50,741 nucleotides of DNA from a virus (taxonomy: Duplodnaviria > Caudoviricetes), in the IMG/VR virus record IMGVR_UViG_3300025141_000149, positions 1-50,741 of that record; one strand, given 5' to 3'. The position numbers and the translations under genes were made by a program. Below, in pieces: positions 6,803 to 50,741 of this stretch. Within the stretch, counting starts at the first letter, position 1, and each line of letters starts with the position of its first letter. The notes under the pieces were generated by a model that saw only the letters and a program-made list of their open reading frames with translations, did not search any database and had not been told where the DNA came from.

Positions 6803-8980
6803 ATGGCAGTAGAAAGTATAATAAGAGGACTTTTAAATAGAGGTAAATCAGTCCGTGATATTGAAGAGCCTTGGTGGTCTAGACGTTATGGTGATATACT
6901 TGGAGCAGTCCCAGGAGTTGTAGGGGCTTTCCAACAGGCGAAAAAAGAAAAGGCAGTACAAGCTAATAGAGACTTAACTACAATATCTAGCTTTGAAGCT
7001 AGGCTTGGGAATAAATTAAACAATTACGAGGTTAGTGGTGATGTATATAATGAGGCTAAAATGCCAGAGCTTAAAGAGTCTATTAATAATTTTTACGATC
7101 AATATTCTTCTAAGTTTCCTGAGTTAATATCTGAGTTTTCCGAAGAACGTGATGCAATTCTAGGTAAAATAAATTCTTACAGTATAAAAAATAAAGAAAA
7201 AGATGCATTACTTTCTAAGATTAATCCCACCAAGGAAAAACTTTTCTCAATAGTTGAGACATTAAATACTACAGCAACAACAGATTTTAATCCCGATGAG
7301 CGAGTCAAGTTCAGACAAGAAGTCTATGATACAATGGAAGAGATTACTAAGCTTGACAAGATAATTGATGACCCTTATTATGCTGGCATAGATGGGTGGG
7401 CAGATACAATTGAAGATGTTAAGTATGGTTTATCAGATGCATCAAAACAACTAATTACACAGATTAATACTTGGGATTCAAAAGAAAATGTTATATCAAA
7501 GCAGGATTTAAATAATCTAGAAAACGCAATATTCAAAAATGATACTCAAGGTATTCGTGCTATTAACGAGCAGATAGTTCAAGATAAAACTGCGAGAATG
7601 ACACAATATGAAACAGATTATAATACTTATTTAAAGAATTATCAAGCTATTGCATCATTTGCAAATACTCAAACGTATAAAGATATGAAAAAAATAAAGG
7701 ATGATGAATATGCTAAGGCTATTAAAGATGGAAGGACAGTTTCCGAGGATTTTTGGTTTGAGTATGTAGACCCAACTAAGCTACCTGGAGCTCCAGAAGA
7801 AGGTGTTAATTTGCAAAACGTGGATGCACAATTAATTAAATTAAAAACTGATGCTGAGAACATAGACGCTAACTATCGTAATGAGCATATAGCTGGTGCT
7901 TCAATAGCCGAAGTTTTAAATAAACCGCTTCCTTGGGATAAGGGTAAGGCGAGCTTAGAGCAAAAGAAAAAAGAGCATGAGAAAAGAATGAAGGACTTAG
8001 GCTTAACTGTTTCTTCTGTTGGTGGAGGTGAGGCTGTTGTTGCTGGCGATGAACCTCTTGAGGTATCAGAACTTCACAGGTCTGTTGCCCCTATAGACCC
8101 TACCATGCCAACTGGTGAGCCACGTGTTAAAGAAGGGGACAATATAGATGTTGGAGTATTTCAAATAAATGAACCAACATTTGCCAAATACAATCCTAAA
8201 GAAATGTCTGAACCAGAGATGATTAAATTTGCATCCGATATTGTTTATAACAATCTTTCAGATACTACTGTTGGTGATTTTAATCACAATGATGGGTGGA
8301 ACAATTGGTCTGTCTATAAAAATAAAACAGATGATTTTAAATTAGCACGTAATAAAAATGATAAATGGTTTTTAGAGAATGGTTTATCTCAGGAGCAATT
8401 AAATAATATTGATAATAATTTTAAATCAAATAAAGATAAAAAAATTGCACGTGCTGTAATATGGGCTGAGTCTAAAGGAGATCATTCAGCTATTAATATC
8501 AATAAGCCCGAAGTTAAAGAACCAGAAGTTAAAGGTATCAAAATAGACTCTCCATTAACTGAGGCAAAGGATGGCAAGACTGTTGTAAATTATAGCAATG
8601 CAAGCTCAACTGGATTTAAAAGACAGCAAACAAATTTAAATAAGATAGCTTCTAAAAAATACAACGCTAAAGAAAATAAAAATAAATATGACAATGTTCG
8701 TGATTTTGTTAAATCTAAGTTTGAAGAGTGGCTAAGGTCAACAGGTAAATATGGTAAGTATGCAGAGGAAGATTTTAAATATTTTATTCCAACAAAAGTT
8801 GACAGGAAAAATAAAGTAAATCCTAATACAGATATGAATAGATATAATTTGTATTATCCTGGTGCTTTTTCTGGTGCAAAAGGAGATGTGCGAATGATGA
8901 TAAATCCTAAAATTGGAAGCGGATACCTAGGATTTGCAAAAGATTTTGATGAGTTTAGAAAGTATTTACAGGAGTCGTAA
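6803..8980 (+). CDS. Ejection protein with lytic transglycosylase-like domain (motif order permuted)
   Basis: Helical/coiled-coil body; DVGVFQIN, GWNNWSVY and AVIWAESKGDHSAIN motifs at about aa 446-568. Confidence 0.7.
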   Translation: MAVESIIRGLLNRGKSVRDIEEPWWSRRYGDILGAVPGVVGAFQQAKKEKAVQANRDLTTISSFEARLGNKLNNYEVSGDVYNEAKMPELKESINNFYDQYSSKFPELISEFSEERDAILGKINSYSIKNKEKDALLSKINPTKEKLFSIVETLNTTATTDFNPDERVKFRQEVYDTMEEITKLDKIIDDPYYAGIDGWADTIEDVKYGLSDASKQLITQINTWDSKENVISKQDLNNLENAIFKNDTQGIRAINEQIVQDKTARMTQYETDYNTYLKNYQAIASFANTQTYKDMKKIKDDEYAKAIKDGRTVSEDFWFEYVDPTKLPGAPEEGVNLQNVDAQLIKLKTDAENIDANYRNEHIAGASIAEVLNKPLPWDKGKASLEQKKKEHEKRMKDLGLTVSSVGGGEAVVAGDEPLEVSELHRSVAPIDPTMPTGEPRVKEGDNIDVGVFQINEPTFAKYNPKEMSEPEMIKFASDIVYNNLSDTTVGDFNHNDGWNNWSVYKNKTDDFKLARNKNDKWFLENGLSQEQLNNIDNNFKSNKDKKIARAVIWAESKGDHSAININKPEVKEPEVKGIKIDSPLTEAKDGKTVVNYSNASSTGFKRQQTNLNKIASKKYNAKENKNKYDNVRDFVKSKFEEWLRSTGKYGKYAEEDFKYFIPTKVDRKNKVNPNTDMNRYNLYYPGAFSGAKGDVRMMINPKIGSGYLGFAKDFDEFRKYLQES

Positions 8981-11900
8981 ATGATAACACGTGAGCAATT
9001 TGTCTCCGAGCTAAGGGAGAAGCATCCAGATATATTTTCCCCAACTACCCCCGATGAATATGTATATCAGACAGGAAGGAAGGCATTTCCTGATCAAGAT
9101 GTAGAAGAATGGTCTGAAATACAACCTATTACAAAACCGAAGGCAGATACATCTCCTGATGGATGGAATGAATTAGTATTCAAAGATATTAATGATGACT
9201 CATGGGAATGGGTTAAACATGCTTATGCAAACTCTCTGCAAGGTACATTAGAAGAGTGGAAAAATGGTGAGCTTGATTATGATATTAAGAAAGATTATGA
9301 TGAGCTTAATGTAGGTGAAAAGATATTATCTGGTGTTGCTAGCTTTCTTATGCCACTTGATATAGTTACACTTTTTGGTGGCGGTCTTGCTAGTAGAGGT
9401 GCAATGGCTATTGGTAAAAAATTAGCAGGTAAACAATTAACTAAATCTCTTGCAGGTCGTGGCTTTTTAACTAAATTAGATGCACTTGGCGTTAAACGTG
9501 GTCTTGGTGAAGGTGTTGCAAGGGGAGCTATTGAAAGAGCTATCGTAGAGGGTAATACTCTTGGTATGTATGAAGCTGCTAAAGGCGGACTTGCTGCTGA
9601 CAATGCAGGCGGTGATGTTGCAAAGGGAATTGCTGATGGTTATGTGCATGGTTCTATTATGGGTGCTGTATTTGGTGGTACAGGCGGTGTTCTTGAAGGT
9701 AATTTTCTAAAGTATAAAGCATTAAAAGAATTAAAGGGTGGCTTCAGAGGACTTGGTGAAAAAGGTGGATTCGCTAAAAAATATACTGTACCTGAGCTTG
9801 AAAAGATGATGAAGTATACAGGTACTATTCCTCAATATGCTGCTGAGGTTGGAGCACTAGAGGCATTTACAATTGTAGATGCTGCTAAAAATGGAGAGCT
9901 TGGCGGAGAAAAGCTTTTAGAAGACTTAGTTGTCAACATTGGATTTGCAGGTCTTATGCGTGGTAAACGTAAACTGATTGGTGATCTTGTCAAACAGTAT
10001 AAAAAGGGTAAGAATACTTACGAAGAAGATTTCCATGAAAGAAGCTTGCAAGAGCTTAGGGGAGATGAAAGACCTTGGCAAGAAAGACTTGCAGATCAGG
10101 GCTTTGAAGGGTTAAAAAAGGTTAAAGAAGATGCTAAGAGAGAGGGCAATACTAAGCTTGAAGAAGTTGTTGATGAGGGTATAAAGCAGTTTAATGAGAA
10201 TAGAGACCCAAGCAAGTTTAAAGAAAGTGAATATCTAGAAAATTTAATAGAATTTGATAAGTTAGATAAAAATCTAATAGCAATGGAATCACTTCTTGGA
10301 GAAAATATAGATGTTATGACTGCTAAGGAGAGGGTGAGTACCCTTACACAGGCTGAAGGTAGAGTACAAGAATTGCTGGGGTCTATAGATAAATTTATAT
10401 CAGATGGACATATAACAGAGGTGCAAGGTAGAGATGCAAGGGCTTGGCTTGCGAATAAAGCTGTTCAGCACCAAGAATTAATAGATAAATATTTTCATAA
10501 AACAACTGATACTGAGTCTAGGCTCGCAGAAAAACAACAAACTGCACGCACTTTGTTTCAAGAGACTCAAACTAAGATTGCAAATTTAGCTGAAAAGCCT
10601 ACAAAAGAAATGTTAGAAAATCTTGTGCTAAAAGAAGAAACTATGGAAGCACAGATACAAACAGAAAAAGGTGCTGACTCATATATACGTGGAACTAAAA
10701 ATGCTATTCGTTTGCTTGAGGGTAAAGAGGGTGCTGAGGGAAGAGATATTTCTTTAAAACAATCTGACTATGAGTCATCTTTATCATTACTAAAAGATAT
10801 ACAAACTGGAAAAGATAAGACAACCGCTGGCTCTGAAATTGCAAGAAAGATTTTAGTAGGGAAGGATAAGTCTGGTAAAAAATATTTTGAAGGTGTTGAA
10901 GATTTTAGTAAAGTTGCCTTTCAAGATTACACAGCCTCAGAATCATCAAAAGCACTCAAGTCATATGCTCCTTATGTGGCAAGATTTTTAAGAGGAACAA
11001 AAAATAGACCATTAGATGAGCTTACAATGATTGAAGTTCAAAGCTATATTAGGGATAGAATTATTGAAAATAAAGGAAAGCCATTAGGATCAGCAGAGCT
11101 TTCTGCTATTAGTAGATTTACAAAACATATTACAAGTGGTCGTGGCAAATTTAATAAAAATATTGAATGGGGTATTGGTACTGAAAGTATATTTAAAGAA
11201 ACAAATAAAAGATTAGCCGAAGGTACTCATCCAGCTGTTCCTGGAGTTAGAAGGGAAGTTATTAAGATTGGAAATGAATTATCTTCTAAGAGAAATGATC
11301 TTGGATATAAATTAGCTGCTGAGCTCATGTCAAGACTTGGTATTAGAGGTCAAGAAATAAAAGATATTTCTAAGGATATTGTAAAAAGCACTACTGTTAA
11401 TGGTAAGAAGCAATATTATATTGACATGAGACCAAAAAGCTTTACTGTTGATGTTGTAACTGGAAGAGAACTTTTTAGTATAGGGACTGGTAAGCCCAAT
11501 ACAAGTAAGGCTTATATATATGTACCAAAAGATTTAGCCGAATCTTTAATTGGTTACTTGAAAGATAATAAATTCACCAAAAAATATATCACAGAAATTC
11601 ATAAGAATATAACATTATCTAATAACAAGACTAAAAAGTGGGCAGATTTACGATCAAGGATAGAAACCCTTGCCCTTCAACATCATCCAGAATTATTGCC
11701 ACAATTAAAATATGTTTTAAGGCATGATAAGACAACGATTGATAAAAATTATTTAAAAATGAATCCAGAGGCAGCTATTGAAATGCAGATGGAGATGCAT
11801 AAAAAACTTGGCTTGGACGTTGAAGTTCCAAAAGTTAAAGTTAAAGGTGGAAAGCCTGAGCTTGGTACTCCTCCACAAGAACCACAAAGAGCTGTAATTG

Positions 11901-14900
11901 ATAAGATACGAGAGACTAAGGCTATCCATGAACGTATCAAGGGTAGAAAAGATATATTAGAACAGTATCAACCACAAAATCAAAAAGAGATTCTTGCCCA
12001 AAAAGATATTATTATTGATGCACTTGAGGGTGCACAGCAACCAAAGGCTGGTGCTAAAATATATCTTAATCGTTTTATTCGTAGTCACGAAAAAGCAATA
12101 CAAGATATAAAAGCTAATCCAACCAAGAAGTTTCCTGAAATGTTTGGAGATATACCTTGGCATGAGGCTCAAATAGCAAATTATAGAGAAGCTTTAAGTC
12201 TGTTAAAGGCTGCTCCTAAACAAGGAATGGTCGAGGTTGGTGCGTTTAAGGGTGAGGGTAAAGGTGAAAGACGTAAACTTACAAATCTTATCAAACGTGA
12301 GCAGAAGTATCTAGGTATTGAGCGTAAACAGCTTGGAAATGAAGCTTATGAAAGGGAGATAAGAGAACTTACAAAGCATGGACTTGGCTATGAAGACCCT
12401 GTTTCTTCTATAAGTAACCTTCAAACAACAGAGTTATATACTTTCCTTAACCTTCTTAGAAGTACTGATTATACTAAGTCAGGTGCTAAATTTAAGGCTG
12501 CTGAGGCTTCTGTTAAGCAAATGGCTAAAGAGCGTGGCGTTACTAAGGCAGAGTTAAAACAAATGTTATCAGAACTTGGTGTTAAAGATGGTGAGTTTGA
12601 AAATGTTTTAAGTAAAGAAGTATTAAATAATTTGAAAGGTACTCTTGCTGAGTATCAGCGTACTAAATTTCCAGCGACACCATCTGACAATATTGTAACA
12701 TTTTTAACCAAAGGATTTACAAAGTTTCCTTCTACATTTAGGCGTGTCTTTACTCCTGTCTATGCACTCCTTAAAAATCCAAAGATTGGTGGAGAGGTAG
12801 GTGGTAAAATTGCAGACTCATTTCTAAACTATGATGTTACCCATTCTATTAAAAATGGTTATTCAACAAGGAGACTTATTGAAATAAGGGGCTTACTTGG
12901 AGATAATGCTCATATGCTTCAGTTTTACGATAAAGAGAAACGTAGGGTTTGGAAAAAGCATATGACTCCAGAGGAGCTAGAGTTTGTTAAAAAGATGGAG
13001 ACAAAGGGAACAGATGAATATAAAGCTCTTGAAATATGGAATGATTTGAGGAAAAATCTCTATAATGACATCGAGGTATATGCAAAGCAGTGGTCTAACA
13101 AAGCTATTGATGAACAGTTAAGAACATGGATGGACAGAAAATATGTTGAAGATTACTTCACTCGTAGGCTTAGTAAAGAATTTTTAGAAATACTTCCTGA
13201 GCTTGAGACTCAGCCTTTCTATGAAAAAATGTTTAATGAAAACATGGACTCATATGTTCGTGGCAAATTAAATAAAATGAAAATACGTGAAAATGAAACT
13301 GATCTTGCTTTTGCAGAACGTAAAAAAGAAAAGGCTGAGAGTATAAGGAAGAACGGGGATGATATAAATGCAGTTAAGAATCGTGTAATGTCATTTTTGG
13401 ATATGCCAAACCACAAAGTAATAAACAAGAACCTTATGGAACGTGGTATACTTTTACCAAGAACAGTTGAGATAGAATTAAAGGGTAAACGTAAGACTAT
13501 TAATACTTATGATGAATCATTTAGAGGATCAGCAGAATACTATGGATTTAGCATGAGTAAATATCTAGCCACACTCCGTCATTTCCCAGAGGTAACAGAG
13601 CTTGGTAAAGAATTAAAGCTTGGCAATTGGAAACAAAATATATTTGATATATTGACCTCTGAAAAAGAAAGTAAGAAGTTTGGGGTGAATAGAGATTGGG
13701 CTGACTATTTAAGACTTACACTTGAAACTCATTTGGGCATGGAGTCTGCCACTACTTCACGTATCAATAAAAAGAATTTGAGATGGATGGGCACACTATC
13801 TTCTACAGGTGCTGCTGCTGGTCTTTCAACTCCACTTGTTCATGGCATTAAAAACTTAGGGCTAGGATTTATAAATTCAAATCGTCACTTTGGAATGCGT
13901 AATACTTTTGCTGGCTTCTTAAAATATATGGATATGCAGGAACGTGCAAAGATGCAAGAAAAAGGTGCTGGAGATTACATGGGTCAAAATATTCTCCGTA
14001 CACAAAAGAATATATTTGAGGAGATGGGCTTAGATAAAAAGCTACCATTTGGAATAGGTAAATGGCTGACAATGGATAGAATATTTGATATAAATTTTAT
14101 GACAAAGTCTGAGGAAATAGGACGTATATCGTCTGCGTTTGCTGGTGGTATGTACTTTCATCAAATACTAGGTGCTTACAAAGGTCAGAAAAATTCATTC
14201 CTTATGAGTAAGGCGAATACAAAGAAGCAAGCTGAGTTTGCCTTTAAGAATCAGTTCAAGCTCTCAAAGGAAGAGATAGATTTTATTAAAAATACCAAGT
14301 ATAAAGACCTGTTTAAAGAGGGTGAAAACTTTAAGAAGATGGCATGGATACAGAATAAGGTGGAGCACTTTTCACACGTATCATCACAGGGTGGTACATC
14401 TACTATCTTACTACCATTGTGGATGAGTCAGCCTGGGTTTAAACCTCTTACTCTATTTTCAAGAATAGCAACGTCTGCTACACATGATCTATGGCAGAAT
14501 ACATTTAGACCTTTATGGAATCATGGTAATCCAATGCCACTTGTTAGACATGCTGCTGCTTCAACCTTTACAGGTGCAGGTTTGTATTATTTTTATAAAC
14601 ATATAGCAGGTCAAGACCAGATGTTTGAAAAGAGTGATGCTAAATGGAAAACATTAGCACAGTACTTATGGCGTGCAGAGTTTCTTGGGCTATGGACTTC
14701 TCTCTTAAATCCACATAGCTCTCCTATATATGGAAAAGGAAAGACTGGTACACTAGGGGTTGATCCTACATTTGTAGGGGATTTCTTTGAGCCTTATATG
14801 ATTAGAAGTGCAAGGGCAATTACAGAGGGAGCAACCACACTTATGACTGATCCTTCTAATCCAAAGGCATACTCACAGGCAGTAAAACATATTATGAAGA

Positions 14901-15442
14901 ATACTGTCTCTGGCGTTGGGCAACTTGGAAGACAATGGGATAGAGTTTTATATCCAGAGCTTCATGAGTGGAGAGGATTTAGAACTGCTGCTCGTTCATT
15001 CAAGAAAGAAAAAGGATATGAAATCCCAGCTGTCATCATGCAGTCAGCACGTAGTATTTATTACAAGGATTTAAAAGATACTTTTTGGACAGGAAGTGAA
15101 AAGGATTTTGCCAAAACTTACTATGATGCTTTATCCTACCTCGATTCTGATTTACTTGAAAATGGATTTGTTAATCCAGCTTTTAGAAGAAAAGAGGCTA
15201 TGAAAAGAATTGAACAATCACTAAAGAGCATGAATCCTGTTAATTTTAGTGATGAATCTAAAGGTAGGATCATGTCAAAGAAGAGAGAGTTTTTAGAATA
15301 CTTAAAGAACTATGATGTAGCTGAGTATAAAAGAGCTATTAAAGCAGAAAGAGAATTTAACTTTAAATTTAGAAAACTATTAGCTTCAGTTAATAAATCA
15401 GAATACAAGCTAAGATACTCTCCATACTACGATAGGTATTAA
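8981..15442 (+). CDS. Giant ejection-type polyvalent virion protein with embedded tyrosine-recombinase-like domain
   Basis: 2153 aa, last late gene; Gly/Ala-rich membrane-like N-terminal region; LGIRGQEI, ADLRSR and VLRHDKTTIDKNY motifs. Confidence 0.75.
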   Translation: MITREQFVSELREKHPDIFSPTTPDEYVYQTGRKAFPDQDVEEWSEIQPITKPKADTSPDGWNELVFKDINDDSWEWVKHAYANSLQGTLEEWKNGELDYDIKKDYDELNVGEKILSGVASFLMPLDIVTLFGGGLASRGAMAIGKKLAGKQLTKSLAGRGFLTKLDALGVKRGLGEGVARGAIERAIVEGNTLGMYEAAKGGLAADNAGGDVAKGIADGYVHGSIMGAVFGGTGGVLEGNFLKYKALKELKGGFRGLGEKGGFAKKYTVPELEKMMKYTGTIPQYAAEVGALEAFTIVDAAKNGELGGEKLLEDLVVNIGFAGLMRGKRKLIGDLVKQYKKGKNTYEEDFHERSLQELRGDERPWQERLADQGFEGLKKVKEDAKREGNTKLEEVVDEGIKQFNENRDPSKFKESEYLENLIEFDKLDKNLIAMESLLGENIDVMTAKERVSTLTQAEGRVQELLGSIDKFISDGHITEVQGRDARAWLANKAVQHQELIDKYFHKTTDTESRLAEKQQTARTLFQETQTKIANLAEKPTKEMLENLVLKEETMEAQIQTEKGADSYIRGTKNAIRLLEGKEGAEGRDISLKQSDYESSLSLLKDIQTGKDKTTAGSEIARKILVGKDKSGKKYFEGVEDFSKVAFQDYTASESSKALKSYAPYVARFLRGTKNRPLDELTMIEVQSYIRDRIIENKGKPLGSAELSAISRFTKHITSGRGKFNKNIEWGIGTESIFKETNKRLAEGTHPAVPGVRREVIKIGNELSSKRNDLGYKLAAELMSRLGIRGQEIKDISKDIVKSTTVNGKKQYYIDMRPKSFTVDVVTGRELFSIGTGKPNTSKAYIYVPKDLAESLIGYLKDNKFTKKYITEIHKNITLSNNKTKKWADLRSRIETLALQHHPELLPQLKYVLRHDKTTIDKNYLKMNPEAAIEMQMEMHKKLGLDVEVPKVKVKGGKPELGTPPQEPQRAVIDKIRETKAIHERIKGRKDILEQYQPQNQKEILAQKDIIIDALEGAQQPKAGAKIYLNRFIRSHEKAIQDIKANPTKKFPEMFGDIPWHEAQIANYREALSLLKAAPKQGMVEVGAFKGEGKGERRKLTNLIKREQKYLGIERKQLGNEAYEREIRELTKHGLGYEDPVSSISNLQTTELYTFLNLLRSTDYTKSGAKFKAAEASVKQMAKERGVTKAELKQMLSELGVKDGEFENVLSKEVLNNLKGTLAEYQRTKFPATPSDNIVTFLTKGFTKFPSTFRRVFTPVYALLKNPKIGGEVGGKIADSFLNYDVTHSIKNGYSTRRLIEIRGLLGDNAHMLQFYDKEKRRVWKKHMTPEELEFVKKMETKGTDEYKALEIWNDLRKNLYNDIEVYAKQWSNKAIDEQLRTWMDRKYVEDYFTRRLSKEFLEILPELETQPFYEKMFNENMDSYVRGKLNKMKIRENETDLAFAERKKEKAESIRKNGDDINAVKNRVMSFLDMPNHKVINKNLMERGILLPRTVEIELKGKRKTINTYDESFRGSAEYYGFSMSKYLATLRHFPEVTELGKELKLGNWKQNIFDILTSEKESKKFGVNRDWADYLRLTLETHLGMESATTSRINKKNLRWMGTLSSTGAAAGLSTPLVHGIKNLGLGFINSNRHFGMRNTFAGFLKYMDMQERAKMQEKGAGDYMGQNILRTQKNIFEEMGLDKKLPFGIGKWLTMDRIFDINFMTKSEEIGRISSAFAGGMYFHQILGAYKGQKNSFLMSKANTKKQAEFAFKNQFKLSKEEIDFIKNTKYKDLFKEGENFKKMAWIQNKVEHFSHVSSQGGTSTILLPLWMSQPGFKPLTLFSRIATSATHDLWQNTFRPLWNHGNPMPLVRHAAASTFTGAGLYYFYKHIAGQDQMFEKSDAKWKTLAQYLWRAEFLGLWTSLLNPHSSPIYGKGKTGTLGVDPTFVGDFFEPYMIRSARAITEGATTLMTDPSNPKAYSQAVKHIMKNTVSGVGQLGRQWDRVLYPELHEWRGFRTAARSFKKEKGYEIPAVIMQSARSIYYKDLKDTFWTGSEKDFAKTYYDALSYLDSDLLENGFVNPAFRRKEAMKRIEQSLKSMNPVNFSDESKGRIMSKKREFLEYLKNYDVAEYKRAIKAEREFNFKFRKLLASVNKSEYKLRYSPYYDRY

Positions 15443-16011
15443 ACATTAAACTCTTTCCATTCGGATAGAGGAACATCATAAAAATATTCTCCTTTCTTAA
15501 CAGATTTGTTAGGCACTTCAACAAGGGGATATTTTTTTATCACATCAGTCTCACAGAATAATAGTGTATCAAAGGTTTTTGTCTTTGTCTCATGATGCAT
15601 GACAACAACATAGTATATATTGTGCTTAAAGAATTTCTCTTTTCTCTCTGGAACATGCACAGTACTATACGGCCATTTCTCTGTGTAGATAGTTCTGCGT
15701 TCAACCTCATACTTTGCCACCATTAGATCAATCCCATAATCATTTGGGTTCTCAATAGCATCTATTCCACGACTACGCAGGAAGTCAATTACAACTTTTT
15801 TACCCGCTCCATCGTTTGCATTGTGATTGCTTTCACTAAAAGGTTTTCTTACTCTCTTTTTTTCAGGTATTATTTCCACTGGTTCTCCATCTAAGTATTC
15901 TATTTCTCCAAATATCCTACGGATGTCTGGAAGTAGTTTATGACACTTGTAATACTCTCCATTAGCATCTTTAAAGTACAGCTGTGGCGTTTTAAGCTCC
16001 TTAACCGCCAC
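15439..16011 (-). CDS. Hypothetical protein, possible PD-(D/E)XK-like nuclease
   Basis: YGIDLMV..YEVERR resembles a D..ExK(R) core; GGAG RBS. Confidence 0.5.
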   Translation of the reverse strand: MAVKELKTPQLYFKDANGEYYKCHKLLPDIRRIFGEIEYLDGEPVEIIPEKKRVRKPFSESNHNANDGAGKKVVIDFLRSRGIDAIENPNDYGIDLMVAKYEVERRTIYTEKWPYSTVHVPERKEKFFKHNIYYVVVMHHETKTKTFDTLLFCETDVIKKYPLVEVPNKSVKKGEYFYDVPLSEWKEFNV

Positions 16012-16531
16012 TATACGCCACTTTTTTCTTCAAATGAGGTTCAACCCAAGGTTTACTATTATCAGGGCTTAAATGAGCCTCCATACCATAGATAGCTATT
16101 AGTAATGCATCAGCAGTTTTAAGTGTTACCTTCTTTGCATTTGGGCATCTATCTATTGCCATTTGCTTTAATACTTTCTTTCTAATAGCCTTTGGTAAGC
16201 CCTTTTTTATCTCAAAATGTGACTGCCACATCTTTGGAGTTACAAGTGTAGGCTCTATTTCATGTGACGCAAGTATTCCCTGCCATTGTCCATAGTTTTC
16301 ACCAAATGTAAATGATCCAGCCCTACCATCTGTAGGGAATGCCCATACTTTCTCCAAGAATACTCTCGTCCTGTATGCTGCGACATCATTGAGACACATG
16401 CCTATAAGGTGTGCCATAGCATTCACTGTTTTTGGGCAGTTGTGAAGTTGCACTGTCTCATTGGTGATAATGGCTACACCACCACCTTTGCCTGGGTCAA
16501 TTCCTATACACTTTCTAAATGGAGTCTTCAT
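16001..16531 (-). CDS. RuvC-like Holliday junction resolvase
   Basis: IGIDPGKGGGVA, FLEKV, SFTFG..YG, VTPKMWQ, ADALLIA. Confidence 0.85.
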   Translation of the reverse strand: MKTPFRKCIGIDPGKGGGVAIITNETVQLHNCPKTVNAMAHLIGMCLNDVAAYRTRVFLEKVWAFPTDGRAGSFTFGENYGQWQGILASHEIEPTLVTPKMWQSHFEIKKGLPKAIRKKVLKQMAIDRCPNAKKVTLKTADALLIAIYGMEAHLSPDNSKPWVEPHLKKKVAYSGG

Positions 16532-16626
16532 TTTCTCTGGTATCTAATTGAAGTATTGTAAATGCCCATATCCAGTCATACTCATTAAAGAGAGCACCTT
16601 CCCAAATATTATACAAAATATACATT

Positions 16627-17985
16627 TTAAAATGGGATTTCATCTGTTTCTGCCTTTGTTAGTGGTGGTACAAATAGCTCATCTTCATTGTTATACATCT
16701 TACACTTATCTCCATCATATGCCATTTGTATTGATCCTGTTTCTCCGTACCTGACCTTTGCAGCTACAAGTACTAATTGATTCTTATTTTCTGGCTTCGC
16801 TGTTGCTGGTACTTTATATGGATAGTAAACAAAGAATACATTCTCCGCTACTTGTTCTATTGCACCTGATTCTGCGAGGTCAGATAGCTGTGGTTTTGGA
16901 TTCCCCCTCGTCTCCAAAGCTCTATTTAACTGGGATGCTAAAATTACAACACAGTTATACTCTTTTGCAATCCATTTATAGTCATTAACTATTCTTTCAA
17001 GCTGAAGTCTTCGTTGATCTTCCTTTCCTGTTGGAGTTATAAGTTGAATATAATCATCAAATATAACATCGGGTTTAAACTTCTTTATCTCTGTAGCTGA
17101 GGCTGGGAAGTCTCTTATCTGATCATACATACGGAAATGCTTAGGGTTATATTTCTTTGCAATATAATCACGGACTCTATCAAGCTCTTGTAATTGTTTC
17201 ATATCATATATACCTTGCCGTATCATTGTATATGAAAGTCTACCCGACTCCAAAGCTATTAGCTTTTTCAACACCTCAACATTTGTAAGTTCCCTATTGA
17301 ATAGTAAAACTTTTCTCTTTTCTGCCAAAATATTTGAGAGTAAATTTAGAAGCATTGTAGATTTACCATGTCCAGGCCGTCCACCTACTATAGTTATCTC
17401 TCCCCTCGTAAGACCACCTGCAAACTTATCAACATTAACAAATCCCGTTTTAACGAGTAGCTTGTCAGTATTTTGTATTGATTCTATTGCATCACCAAGA
17501 GCCTCATTAATATCAAAAGAGCTATCTGGCCTTAAACTTATAAGTTCACCAATGTTAGTATGTGCTGAGACAAGGACATCTAAGGCATCTATCTTATTGT
17601 CCATTGCCTTTTCTTCTATCTCTTTGGCTGACTCAATGACAAGACGTAGTAGATACTTCTCGTATATCTTCTTTGCATATACCTCTATCGTACTTTTACT
17701 GCCTGCTCCTTCTGTGCAATCTACAAGGAATACATTATTTACTCCCTGTATGTGATCTCCCTCATCAAGTGTTGAGGTAACAGTCATAAGATCAACATGC
17801 TCTCTTCTCCGTATCATCCCTGCAAGGACGTTCCACAGCACTTTACATCTGCTGTCGTACCACACCTCATCTGAGACTATATACTTCGCTATATCATTGA
17901 ATTTGGAAGGATACATAATAACAGCACCAACTACAGCAAGTTCTATCGTTGCATCATTAGGAAGTTCTTTATTACTTTTTGCCAT
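16627..17985 (-). CDS. dnaB: Replicative DnaB-family helicase
   Basis: N-terminal DnaB domain, GGRPGHGKST Walker A, FDDYIQL, ASQLNR, PQLSDLAESGAIEQ, KVRYGETG. Confidence 0.95.
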   Translation of the reverse strand: MAKSNKELPNDATIELAVVGAVIMYPSKFNDIAKYIVSDEVWYDSRCKVLWNVLAGMIRRREHVDLMTVTSTLDEGDHIQGVNNVFLVDCTEGAGSKSTIEVYAKKIYEKYLLRLVIESAKEIEEKAMDNKIDALDVLVSAHTNIGELISLRPDSSFDINEALGDAIESIQNTDKLLVKTGFVNVDKFAGGLTRGEITIVGGRPGHGKSTMLLNLLSNILAEKRKVLLFNRELTNVEVLKKLIALESGRLSYTMIRQGIYDMKQLQELDRVRDYIAKKYNPKHFRMYDQIRDFPASATEIKKFKPDVIFDDYIQLITPTGKEDQRRLQLERIVNDYKWIAKEYNCVVILASQLNRALETRGNPKPQLSDLAESGAIEQVAENVFFVYYPYKVPATAKPENKNQLVLVAAKVRYGETGSIQMAYDGDKCKMYNNEDELFVPPLTKAETDEIPF

Positions 17986-50092: not shown

Positions 50093-50741
50093 ATGAGTAA
50101 AAGTGTAGTAAGACGAGCAATAGTAACACCTGACAAACATTTCCCATTAGCGGATAAAAAAGCAATTAGTGTTTTATGTCAGGCAATTGAAATAGTAAAA
50201 CCAGATATATATGTAGATTTAGGTGATGTGGGAGAATGGGAGGGTTCTTCCCACTGGCAATGGAGAAAGAAGAAACGTCCACCGCTAGAATACCAAACTC
50301 CTTTTATAGACCAAGATATAAAGGATGTTAACAAGGGGATGGACATAATAGACGAAGCTCTCGATAAAGTAAACTGTAATGAGAAGCATATGATCGAGGG
50401 CAATCATGATGATTGGATGAACAGGTTTGTAGATGAACATCCATATTTGAAAGGATATAGGTTTGAAGAATGTGTAAAGCTAAAAGAAAGAGGTTATACG
50501 TATCATCCAGCGGGTCAGTACATGAAGCTTGGGAAGTTGGCTCTGTATCATGGTCATCACTTTGCTGGGATAAACCATACGAGGAATCATTTACTGAGGC
50601 TTGGAACAAACATAATGTATGGTCATCATCACGACATACAACAGTCATCTGTTACCCACTTGGATGGGGTGAAGTCAGCGTGGAGTATAGGATGTCTAAA
50701 GGACATGAAGGCAGATAAGAATGAATTTTTACAACACAGGA
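50093..50741 (+). CDS. Calcineurin-like metallophosphoesterase (open at window end, not in ORF track)
   Basis: MSKSVVRRAIVTPDKHFP; DxH, LGD, EGNHD, YHGH and GHHH motifs. Confidence 0.9.
   Translation, partial: MSKSVVRRAIVTPDKHFPLADKKAISVLCQAIEIVKPDIYVDLGDVGEWEGSSHWQWRKKKRPPLEYQTPFIDQDIKDVNKGMDIIDEALDKVNCNEKHMIEGNHDDWMNRFVDEHPYLKGYRFEECVKLKERGYTYHPAGQYMKLGKLALYHGHHFAGINHTRNHLLRLGTNIMYGHHHDIQQSSVTHLDGVKSAWSIGCLKDMKADKNEFLQHR
50556..50741. repeat. Right copy of imperfect terminal direct repeat
   Basis: About 91% identical to 1-186. Confidence 0.95.

What the first reader, a model, noticed from the sequence alone, without database searches (positions are those of the whole stretch)
10910..11760. 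Tyrosine recombinase embedded in the 2153-aa ejection protein
Seen: aa ~645-720 read like an integrase core-binding domain (ALKSYAPYVARFL...PLDELTMIEVQSYI...LSAISRFTKHI). It is followed by LAAELMSRLGIRGQEI (R789), candidate Lys residues (K819 or K838), WADLRSR (R891) and VLRHDKTTIDKNY (H915, Y924). Established: XerD has R148, R247, H270 and Y279, spaced 99, 23 and 9; the spacings here are 102, 24 and 9. The His of the HxxR motif is Ala (A888), so activity may be altered. Inference: the largest last late gene of a podovirus is normally packaged and ejected, so this enzyme could enter with the DNA and act before any gene expression (circularisation, end protection, integration or topoisomerase-like activity). 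No other integrase is present in the genome.
Basis: partly seen in the sequence, partly recalled or inferred. Interest (0 to 1): 0.9.

Follow-up and report, generated by a model that had tools for sequence, protein, structure and literature searches.

The report
Recombinase-like module inside giant phage protein
A marine phage's largest late protein carries, in its middle, a very divergent but apparently intact tyrosine-recombinase-type DNA cutting-and-rejoining module, an unusual place for such an enzyme, though whether it travels in the virus particle is not yet shown.

Summary
Every quoted motif and residue number is correct in the 2153-aa ORF 8981-15442.

The tyrosine-recombinase (YR) reading is supported by independent lines:
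- R789, E792, R891 and H915 are kept in 14/14 sequences, Y924 in 13/13 and K838 in 12/14, down to 24% identity.
- An AlphaFold model (pLDDT 76) finds only YR-fold proteins first: Xer, lambda Int, Cre, IntI and Ndc10 in PDB, phage integrases in BFVD.
- Language-model neighbours are all integrase families.
- Profile-profile alignment to 15 real recombinases is colinear and scores 32.2, against 7.8-13.6 for 30 shuffles.

Evidence against: no HMM reaches threshold, and PF00589 never hits. Foldseek E-values are marginal.

The missing HxxR histidine (A888) is variable in the family, but Cre H289A is active and type IB topoisomerases lack that residue (PMC2943603). The module is an ancestral part of a giant protein that always ends the late operon (window, L005, L009).

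Packaging and ejection remain inference from gene position only. No target site was found.

Verdict: a real, probably active YR/TopIB-like module in a new context; its function is open.

The parts
8981..15442 (+). Giant late ORF, 2153 aa (P0001). It is the last gene of the rightward late operon and is convergent with the minus-strand genes 15439-16011, the RuvC-like 16001-16531 and the DnaB-like 16627-17985.
   Evidence: Full-length homologues P0002 and P0003. N-terminal, recombinase-like and C-terminal regions all align with the distant giants P0013 and P0014. Same position in L005 and L009.
9323..9412 (+). The only strongly hydrophobic, TM-like segment (aa 115-144), inside a Gly-rich N-terminal region.
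   Evidence: Kyte-Doolittle scan, peak 1.77.
10895..11185 (+). Core-binding (SAM-like) four-helix domain, aa ~639-735.
   Evidence: Pfam Phage_int_SAM_4, E=2.8e-4, 21.7 bits (cut-off 27), aa 656-716. It is the only such match in the genome, 10943-11131. Weak SAM_1/SAM_4/SAM_2 hits in other family members. Helices H2-15, H18-34, H45-58 and H66-80 in the model.
11186..11290 (+). Inter-domain linker with the invariant motif P-A-x-x-G-V-R(757)-x-E.
   Evidence: G755, V756 and R757 are invariant in A3. R757 is kept in 14/14. pLDDT is low at model residues 92-112.
11291..11815 (+). Catalytic-type domain, aa ~771-945.
   Evidence: Model pLDDT ~86-96 over most of it. Foldseek top hits are Xer, lambda Int, Cre, IntI, Flp and Ndc10 and phage integrases. 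hhalign is colinear with XerD and others.
11345..11347 (+). R789 codon (Arg I, motif G-I-R-x-Q-E-I, with invariant E792).
   Evidence: 14/14 conserved. Aligns to XerD R148.
11492..11494 (+). K838 codon, the candidate catalytic Lys, in the turn between strands E192-196 and E206-210 of the model.
   Evidence: 12/14 in the MAFFT column. The other two (P0013, L005) have a Lys next to a 2-residue deletion. Strand positions.
11642..11644 (+). A888 codon, the position of the HxxR histidine.
   Evidence: Variable (A, L, R, T, Y, V, G, N); His in 0/14. Aligns to XerD H244.
11651..11653 (+). R891 codon (Arg II, motif D-L-R-x-R).
   Evidence: 14/14. Aligns to XerD R247.
11723..11725 (+). H915 codon (His III, motif L-G/R-H-D).
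   Evidence: 14/14. Aligns to XerD H270.
11750..11752 (+). Y924 codon, the candidate nucleophile, 9 residues after H915.
   Evidence: 13/13; P0010 is truncated before it. Aligns to XerD Y279.
6803..8980 (+). Upstream 725-aa late protein. It is a possible cell-wall hydrolase and provides context only.
   Evidence: Only a sub-threshold Pfam SLT_3 hit, E=0.027, aa 544-567. No PDB sequence match.

Best explanation
Residues ~639-945 of the 2153-aa late protein form a genuine but very divergent member of the tyrosine-recombinase / type IB topoisomerase superfamily. An N-terminal SAM-like core-binding domain and a C-terminal catalytic domain would clamp duplex DNA. R789, K838, R891, H915 (with E792) and the nucleophile Y924 would cleave one strand through a covalent 3'-phosphotyrosine link and reseal it. 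The module is an ancestral, integral part of a giant protein that closes the late (virion) operon in a group of uncultured marine phages. I think the protein is most likely a capsid-internal cargo that enters the cell with the DNA. The enzyme would then act on the incoming genome before phage genes are expressed, by strand breakage and rejoining: relaxation, end-joining/cyclisation, or covalent end capture. Shown here: the fold-level and residue-level kinship, its conservation, and its gene position. Inferred: catalytic activity (my odds ~0.6), packaging and ejection (~0.55), and the exact reaction (any single one <=0.25). The confidence given is for the statement as a whole; for the fold-level kinship alone it is ~0.9.
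For: (1) Residues. R789, E792, R891 and H915 are 14/14, Y924 13/13 and K838 12/14 (the other two have an adjacent Lys). This holds across 14 sequences down to 24% pairwise identity, which form about six lineages.
(2) Structure. The AF2 model built with the 10-sequence alignment has pLDDT 76.3 and pTM 0.60, with the catalytic part ~86-96. All 22 PDB rows listed at ranks 1-25 are XerA/Xer, lambda Int, Cre/Tre, IntI or Ndc10; probabilities run from 1.00 at ranks 1-3 down to 0.38 at rank 23, and the first non-recombinase row (rank 26) has 0.08. In BFVD, ranks 1-15 are named integrases, VLF-1 or unnamed proteins, best E=9.9e-5.
(3) ESM Atlas. The listed neighbours score 0.97-0.98; six of the seven rows are PF16795/PF00589 integrase clusters and the top row has no common Pfam family. 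All ten best hits that carry a family share a family or clan.
(4) hhalign against 15 real recombinases scores 32.2 (P=0.0016) over 223-264 colinear columns. It pairs R789/R148, A888/H244, R891/R247, H915/H270 and Y924/Y279 (XerD numbering). Thirty column shuffles give 7.8-13.6 and the reversed control 11.9.
(5) Sub-threshold Pfam SAM-like hits fall at the expected N-terminal position.
(6) The secondary-structure order matches the canonical layout (the canonical layout itself is recalled). Arg I lies before a helix, Lys in a beta-hairpin turn, Arg II at a helix N-terminus, His III in a loop and Tyr in a short helix.
(7) The missing His is tolerated. Cre H289A/G/M/N are active and TopIB has no equivalent residue (PMC2943603, abstract and section 23).
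(8) Context. The giant gene ends the late operon in the window, L005 and L009. The whole protein is homologous across the group. A giant MS-confirmed virion protein ends the morphogenesis module of Bcep22-like podoviruses (PMC9144972, passages). The module is net basic, +26 over aa 601-1000.
Against: No sequence HMM reaches significance. PF00589 gives no hit at E<=10 in any of the 10 family members and none in six frames. A family profile finds no recombinase among PDB sequences at E<=10. The HHsuite 'probability' is only 3.7-16%. Foldseek E-values are marginal: best 1.6e-3 in PDB, none <=1e-3, TM 0.24-0.35, rmsd 11-19 A over both domains. The core-binding half of the model is only pLDDT ~60-80 and the linker <50. 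I could not inspect coordinates, so active-site geometry is unverified. The HxxR His is absent in 14/14. Nothing shows virion association: no PHROG, Pfam, NCBIfam or tblastn match of any part to a known virion or ejection protein. The morphotype is not established. No lox/dif-like site stood out. The module is the least conserved part against the closest homologue P0002, 74% against 87-96% elsewhere.
Confidence: 0.5

Rival explanations
1. The module is an active recombinase or resolvase, but the giant protein is not packaged. It would work late inside the cell, for example resolving concatemers or multimers before headful packaging, as proposed for stand-alone recombinases of lytic phages.
For: No evidence of virion association exists. 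The gene abuts, convergently, a RuvC-like resolvase and a DnaB helicase in three genomes. The lytic phage phiCbK carries a small tyrosine recombinase that its authors assign to resolution of replicative intermediates (PMC3556154, passage).
Against: It is transcribed with, and at the end of, the ~34-kb structural operon that runs from terS and wraps the record end. It is not in the replication module. A 2153-aa carrier with a TM-like segment is hard to explain for a soluble resolvase. Giant terminal genes of podovirus morphogenesis modules are virion cargo where this has been tested (PMC9144972).
Confidence: 0.2
2. The module is a catalytically dead, recombinase-derived DNA clamp. It would merely hold or guide the genome end inside the capsid or during entry.
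For: The HxxR His is absent in 14/14. The module is basic. Ndc10, a non-catalytic DNA binder, is among the structural hits (that Ndc10 is inactive is recalled).
Against: The nucleophile Tyr, the Lys, both Arg, His III and the organising Glu are invariant at 24-27% identity. That pattern is expected under selection for chemistry rather than for binding alone. The missing His is dispensable in Cre and absent in TopIB.
Confidence: 0.15
3. It is the phage's integrase for lysogeny, expressed as part of (or processed from) the giant protein.
For: No other tyrosine or serine recombinase is in the genome, or in the 95%-complete relative G001.
Against: No copy was found in 185,579 species genomes, although that search had limited sensitivity (two peptide patterns). 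No attP-like site was seen. A late-operon position is the opposite of the usual integrase regulation. No repressor module was looked for.
Confidence: 0.07
4. The resemblance is chance or convergent, and the segment has another fold.
For: All sequence-HMM tests are below threshold. The Foldseek E-values are marginal.
Against: Four methods converge on the same family. Shuffle controls are far below the real score. All catalytic positions align colinearly.
Confidence: 0.05

Closest known systems
Xer-type and phage tyrosine recombinases (XerA/XerC/XerD, lambda Int, P1 Cre; Pfam PF00589 with SAM-like PF13495/PF02899)
   Same: Two-domain layout, with a SAM-like core-binding domain plus a catalytic domain. 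Arg I within G-x-R-x-x-E, Lys in a beta-hairpin, Arg II, His III and Tyr with spacings 102/24/9 against 99/23/9 in XerD. Best structural and language-model neighbours.
   Different: It is not a free-standing ~300-aa enzyme but residues ~639-945 of a 2153-aa late protein. No PF00589 hit at any threshold tried. The HxxR His is absent in 14/14. There is an extra invariant G-V-R(757) linker motif and a D-L-R-x-R/K motif. No recognisable target site.
Type IB topoisomerases (e.g. poxvirus TopIB; phage TopIB of some jumbo phages, PMC7824862 passage)
   Same: Exactly the residues shared by TopIB and recombinases (Arg, Lys, Arg, His, Tyr) are the conserved ones. The recombinase-specific His is missing, as in TopIB (PMC2943603). 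Vaccinia TopIB is carried in the virion core (recalled, not checked here), which would be a functional parallel.
   Different: No TopIB appears among the Foldseek rows listed. The N-terminal domain is SAM-like, as in integrases.
Giant virion-delivered multi-domain proteins of short-tailed phages (Bcep22/JC1 DarB-like gp69, N4 vRNAP, 'polyvalent proteins')
   Same: A very large protein encoded at the end of the morphogenesis module. JC1 gp69 (4515 aa) is MS-confirmed in virions (PMC9144972). N4 packages a ~3500-aa RNA polymerase (PMC13434306, search-listing abstract only). The C-terminal third's nearest named language-model cluster carries LPD38, at 0.94; this is a lead only.
   Different: No sequence match to any of them. 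Only one enzymatic module is recognisable. The polyvalent-protein survey's main text does not mention recombinase, integrase or tyrosine recombinase (0 occurrences; supplements not seen).
Telomere resolvases (protelomerases TelN/TelK/ResT)
   Same: Same superfamily chemistry. ResT is recalled to have a non-His residue at the HxxR position.
   Different: None appears among the listed Foldseek hits. No large protelomerase-specific domains were recognised. The genome assembles as a circle or permuted, which does not suggest hairpin telomeres.

Membership tests
Tyrosine recombinase superfamily (PF00589 clan) | Catalytic-domain fold | tested here: met
   AF2 model pLDDT 76. All 22 PDB rows listed at ranks 1-25 are recombinase-fold proteins, with probabilities from 1.00 down to 0.38. 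BFVD top hits are integrases, best E=9.9e-5. E-values are marginal, TM ~0.3 over both domains, and coordinates were not inspected.
Tyrosine recombinase superfamily (PF00589 clan) | Catalytic residues Arg I, Lys, Arg II, His/Trp III and the Tyr nucleophile, in order and spacing | tested here: met
   R789 14/14, K838 12/14 (plus 2 shifted), R891 14/14, H915 14/14, Y924 13/13. They align colinearly with XerD R148/R247/H270/Y279.
Tyrosine recombinase superfamily (PF00589 clan) | His of the HxxR box (His II) | tested here: not met
   Position 888 is A/L/R/T/Y/V/G/N, with His in 0/14. It is not strictly required in Cre, is ~87% conserved in the family, and is absent from TopIB (PMC2943603 section 23).
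Tyrosine recombinase superfamily (PF00589 clan) | Significant match to the family's sequence model | tested here: not met
   PF00589: no hit at E<=10 in 10/10 members and none at E<=1 in six frames. The family profile against PDB sequences finds no recombinase at E<=10. hhalign P=0.0016, but probability is only 16%.
Tyrosine recombinase superfamily (PF00589 clan) | N-terminal SAM-like core-binding domain | tested here: inconclusive
   PF13495 E=2.8e-4, 21.7 bits, below the cut-off of 27. Weak SAM_1/SAM_4/SAM_2 hits in up to 6 of 10 members. A four-helix bundle in the model at pLDDT 60-80. The lambda Int core-binding domain 2oxo is hit at E=3.4.
Tyrosine recombinase superfamily (PF00589 clan) | Covalent 3'-phosphotyrosine intermediate, and strand exchange or relaxation | not testable with these tools
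   Needs biochemistry.
Site-specific recombinase with its own core site | Inverted-repeat core site (arms ~11-13 bp, spacer 6-8 bp) in the phage genome | tested here: inconclusive
   The inverted-repeat scan lists 23 short palindromes and none is convincing. No comparative test was done.
Type IB topoisomerase | TopIB fold or N-terminal domain among the best structural matches | tested here: not met
   No TopIB is in the listed Foldseek rows. The pentad shared with TopIB is present.
Podovirus ejection / internal virion proteins | Encoded in the late structural operon | tested here: met
   It is the last gene of the + strand operon terS-TerL-portal-MCP-fibres, which wraps the record end. The same holds in L005 and L009.
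Podovirus ejection / internal virion proteins | Similarity to a known ejection-protein family | tested here: not met
   PHROGs, Pfam and NCBIfam give nothing relevant. tblastn of four parts against 50,697 phage records finds no match.
Podovirus ejection / internal virion proteins | Presence in virions and release on infection | not testable with these tools
Polyvalent proteins (Iyer et al. 2017) | Several recognisable effector domains, or a MuF-type packaging domain | tested here: not met
   Only the recombinase-like module is recognisable. LPD38 is a language-model lead only, 0.94 with 148 shared features.

The most novel reading that the evidence does not exclude
A group of marine phages packages a tyrosine-recombinase/TopIB-type enzyme as part of a giant capsid-internal protein. 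The protein would be ejected with the DNA and would cut and rejoin, or covalently capture, the incoming genome before any phage gene is expressed. Possible roles are cyclising the terminally redundant chromosome, swivelling it during entry, or shielding an end from host exonucleases. This would be a phage counterpart of virion-borne DNA enzymes of eukaryotic viruses.
Probability: 0.3. Interest if true: 0.9.

Novelty: new variant of a known kind. Interest (0 to 1): 0.7.

Why it matters
Known enzymatic cargo of tailed-phage particles includes cell-wall hydrolases, RNA polymerases and anti-restriction enzymes. My searches found no description of a tyrosine-recombinase-type module embedded in such a protein. 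The ejection-protein review and the polyvalent-protein survey main text do not mention one; their supplements were not seen.

If the protein is delivered with the DNA, it would show that a phage can bring its own DNA breakage-rejoining enzyme. That opens a testable route to how permuted linear genomes are cyclised or protected in the first seconds of infection.

Even if it is not packaged, the family is an extreme outlier of the superfamily. It keeps exactly the TopIB-shared pentad and lacks the recombinase-specific His, which is useful for understanding the minimal active site. It also shows that standard HMM annotation misses such modules.

Tried and rejected
Searches and folds that gave nothing useful:
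- Single-sequence AF2 of aa 621-960 was useless (pLDDT 41.5).
- phmmer and hmmsearch against PDB sequences found no recombinase.
- The megablast and the four tblastn searches of the giant protein and its parts against GenBank phages all found no match.
- The word-index homologue search with the segment alone found none of 187-595 aa. The profile search with 'longer' returned only two fragments, because only 638-2000 aa were searched.
- The search for related loci in viral contigs found no relative with A3, P0014, P0012 or P0006. It found one with P0013 (L005).
- The genome-contig scan found no prophage copy, using two peptide patterns only, so this is weak evidence.
- NCBIfam found nothing relevant. 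PHROGs on ten further late ORFs found nothing informative on morphotype.
- The inverted-repeat scan gave no convincing lox/dif-like site.

hhalign runs: the first run against 4 recombinases was weak (P=0.012). A second run (P=3.8e-4) used a template set in which my ORF picker chose some wrong ORFs, so I disregard it in favour.

Sequencing runs: no RNA holder was listed. The four runs laid were Logan contigs only. They show near-identical and related sequence in marine metagenomes, but cannot show ends, strand, expression or rank parts of the gene. The lower summed depth over 10709-11788 is therefore not used as evidence.

Readings considered and rejected:
- Tape-measure protein: no PHROG tape-measure hit to P0001, and it is the terminal gene after the fibres.
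- Assembly or frameshift artefact: the module is in frame in P0002, P0003, P0006, P0013, P0014, L005 and L009.
- P0015 was dropped from all alignments as a repeat protein with six non-colinear stretches.
- The fragments P0005, P0007, P0008, P0009 and P0011 were left out of A3.

Full report
WHAT IS THERE. The window is a whole IMG/VR virus record of 50,741 bp, with a CheckV completeness estimate of 100%. The ORF 8981-15442 (+) encodes 2153 aa. The finding's coordinates correspond to aa 644-927. XerD, fetched from E. coli K-12, has R148, K172, H244, R247, H270 and Y279. The spacing comparison of 102/24/9 against 99/23/9 is therefore correct.

GENOME CONTEXT.
- The + strand late operon starts with terS (32395) and continues through TerL, a portal and an SU10-type capsid protein.
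- Fibre/spike genes and a weak 'internal virion protein' hit follow.
- The operon runs across the record's end. The metallophosphoesterase ORF at 50093 continues in frame into position ~306.
- The same genome occurs as a 50,774-bp metagenome contig in another permutation. The record is therefore a linearised circular or permuted genome.
- The giant gene is the last gene of this operon. It is convergent with a 190-aa gene, a RuvC-like resolvase and a DnaB-like helicase on the minus strand.
- The portal is only 22-24% identical to the portals of P22-like APSE phages.
- No tail tube, sheath or tape-measure family was recognised. 'Podovirus' is therefore plausible but inferred.
- No PF00589 and no serine recombinase is found in six frames at E<=1.

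IS THE MODULE A TYROSINE RECOMBINASE? Sequence models alone say little.
- Pfam gives only Phage_int_SAM_4 at E=2.8e-4, 21.7 bits against a cut-off of 27, over aa 656-716. It is the only such match in the genome.
- PF00589 never appears, even at E<=10, in any of ten family members.
- A family profile finds no recombinase among PDB sequences.

An exhaustive phmmer search of 1.84 billion representatives gave only 13 hits at E<=0.001. Several of these are giant proteins of 1225-2409 aa that are 25-45% identical in this region. I dropped P0015, a repeat protein matched in six non-colinear stretches, and five short fragments. The remaining nine were aligned with the window (A3). Four more copies from loci L005 and L007-L009 brought the set to 14. 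These form roughly six lineages, and the minimum pairwise identity is 24%.

Conservation in this set:
- R789, within G-I/L/V-R-x-x-E-I/V/M: 14/14.
- E792: 14/14.
- R891, within D-L/I/T-R-x-R/K: 14/14.
- H915, within L/F/M-G/R-H-D/N/E: 14/14.
- Y924: 13/13; one sequence is truncated before it.
- K838: 12/14 in its column. The other two carry a Lys beside a two-residue deletion.
- K819: not conserved.
- Position 888, the His of HxxR: A/L/R/T/Y/V/G/N, never His.

With A3 as its alignment, AlphaFold2 gives mean pLDDT 76.3 and pTM 0.60. The catalytic half scores ~86-96, the core-binding half 60-80, and the linker is disordered.

Foldseek results with this model:
- Against the PDB, all 22 rows listed at ranks 1-25 are XerA/archaeal Xer, lambda Int, Cre/Tre, integron integrase or Ndc10. 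Probabilities run from 1.00 at ranks 1-3 down to 0.38 at rank 23. The next row drops to probability 0.08.
- Against BFVD, the top 15 rows are phage integrases, VLF-1 or unnamed proteins, best E=9.9e-5.
- The E-values are marginal. The best PDB value is 1.6e-3, and TM is only ~0.3 with rmsd 11-19 A. This is what one expects when two domains are superposed as one body, but I could not cut the model or see coordinates.

ESM-Atlas feature neighbours score 0.97-0.98. Six of the seven listed rows are PF16795/PF00589 integrase clusters; the top-ranked row has no common Pfam family.

Profile-profile alignment against 13 E. coli K-12 recombinases plus lambda Int and Cre gives:
- Score 32.2, P=0.0016, HH-probability 16%, over 223-264 colinear columns.
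- Pairings R789/R148, A888/H244, R891/R247, H915/H270 and Y924/Y279.
- Thirty column-shuffled templates score 7.8-13.6, and the reversed template scores 11.9.

The secondary-structure order in the model fits the canonical catalytic-domain layout, which I recall rather than tested. Arg I lies before a helix, a three-strand sheet carries the Lys in a hairpin turn, Arg II sits at a helix N-terminus, His III is in a loop and Tyr is in a short helix. I conclude, with odds of about 0.9, that this is a real and extremely divergent member of the superfamily.

IS IT LIKELY ACTIVE? Invariance of the nucleophile, the Lys, both Arg, His III and the organising Glu at ~25% identity argues for retained chemistry. 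The missing His is not disqualifying. In Cre only Tyr and Lys are strictly required. All but five substitutions of His289 are active in vivo, including Ala, Gly, Met and Asn. The residue is ~87% conserved among recombinases, and type IB topoisomerases have no equivalent (PMC2943603; abstract and section 23 read). The family thus keeps exactly the set shared by recombinases and TopIB. My odds of activity are about 0.6.

IS IT PART OF AN EJECTION PROTEIN? This is the weak link.

For:
- It is the terminal gene of the structural operon in the window, L005 (46.7 kb, 95% complete) and L009.
- The whole giant protein (N-terminus, module and C-terminus) is homologous across the group, so the module is ancestral rather than a recent insertion.
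- There is one TM-like segment in a Gly-rich N-terminal region, and the module is basic.
- The upstream 725-aa protein has a sub-threshold SLT_3 hit at E=0.027.
- There is precedent for giant virion-borne proteins at the end of podovirus morphogenesis modules. JC1 gp69 (4515 aa) is MS-confirmed (PMC9144972, passages). The N4 vRNAP is known to me here from the listing abstract only.

Against:
- No part of the protein matches any known virion or ejection family or any GenBank phage.
- The C-terminal third resembles only unnamed viral clusters.

My odds of packaging are about 0.55.

WHAT MIGHT IT DO? No target site emerged. No integrated copy was found in species genomes, although that search was weak. 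The module is the fastest-evolving part relative to the closest homologue, at 74% identity against 87-96% elsewhere. That would fit a changing DNA specificity or a conflict interface. Candidate reactions are Cre-like cyclisation of a terminally redundant genome, TopIB-like swivelling, and covalent end capture. I cannot rank them beyond noting that the conserved residue set is the TopIB-shared one while the fold neighbours are Xer/Int/Cre.

NOVELTY. My literature searches found no description of a tyrosine-recombinase-type module inside a phage virion or ejection protein. The ejection-protein review has 0 occurrences of 'recombinase' or 'integrase'. The polyvalent-protein survey's main text likewise has none. 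Supplements were closed and may hold domain tables that I could not see. Stand-alone recombinases in lytic phages (phiCbK) and phage TopIB are known. I class this as a new variant of a known kind.

VERDICT. The recombinase reading is supported. The ejection and early-action reading is plausible but untested. Interest is 0.7.

Noticed in passing
window 50093-50741 joined to 1-306; locus L006: The metallophosphoesterase ORF at the record's end continues in frame across the end-to-start junction, giving 318 aa in total. The translation near the junction contains a near-duplicate stretch (SIGCLKDMKA-D/E-KNEFLQ occurs twice). The same genome is also held as a 50,774-bp metagenome contig in a different permutation. 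The record, flagged 'linear', is therefore a cut circle or permuted genome, and there may be a small assembly overlap.
   Followed up: partly
window 10895-11833 compared with the rest of 8981-15442: The recombinase-like module is the least conserved part of the giant protein against the closest homologue P0002: 74% identity against 87-96% elsewhere. Against P0003 the region aa 341-638 is lower still, at 44%.
   Followed up: partly
window 6803-8980: The 725-aa protein just upstream has only a sub-threshold Pfam SLT_3 (lysozyme-like) hit, E=0.027 at aa 544-567. It has no PDB sequence match.
   Followed up: partly
window 13478-15439: By language-model features the C-terminal 654 aa resemble large unnamed clusters of viral proteins (0.97-0.98). 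The nearest named cluster carries LPD38, a 'large polyvalent protein' domain, at 0.94. No Pfam hit supports this.
   Followed up: no
window 15439-17985 (-); L005 16960-19362 (-); L009 15129-17428 (-): The block small protein / RuvC-like Holliday-junction resolvase / DnaB-like helicase lies convergent to the giant gene in the window and L005. L009 has ORFs of matching size and order there (168, 175 and 456 aa), but I did not annotate them. In the window the giant gene's stop overlaps the end of the 190-aa gene by 4 bp.
   Followed up: partly
window 11249-11257 (aa 757-759) and relatives: An invariant P-A-x-x-G-V-R-x-E motif lies in the linker between the two domains (R757 14/14). It has no counterpart that I know of in canonical recombinases.
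   Followed up: no
window 8981-15442 in runs X3, X4, X5, X9: Near-identical and 80-95% similar fragments of the giant gene occur in many marine metagenome assemblies from several studies. This suggests an abundant, microdiverse phage population. Only contigs were available, so nothing can be said on ends or expression.
   Followed up: partly
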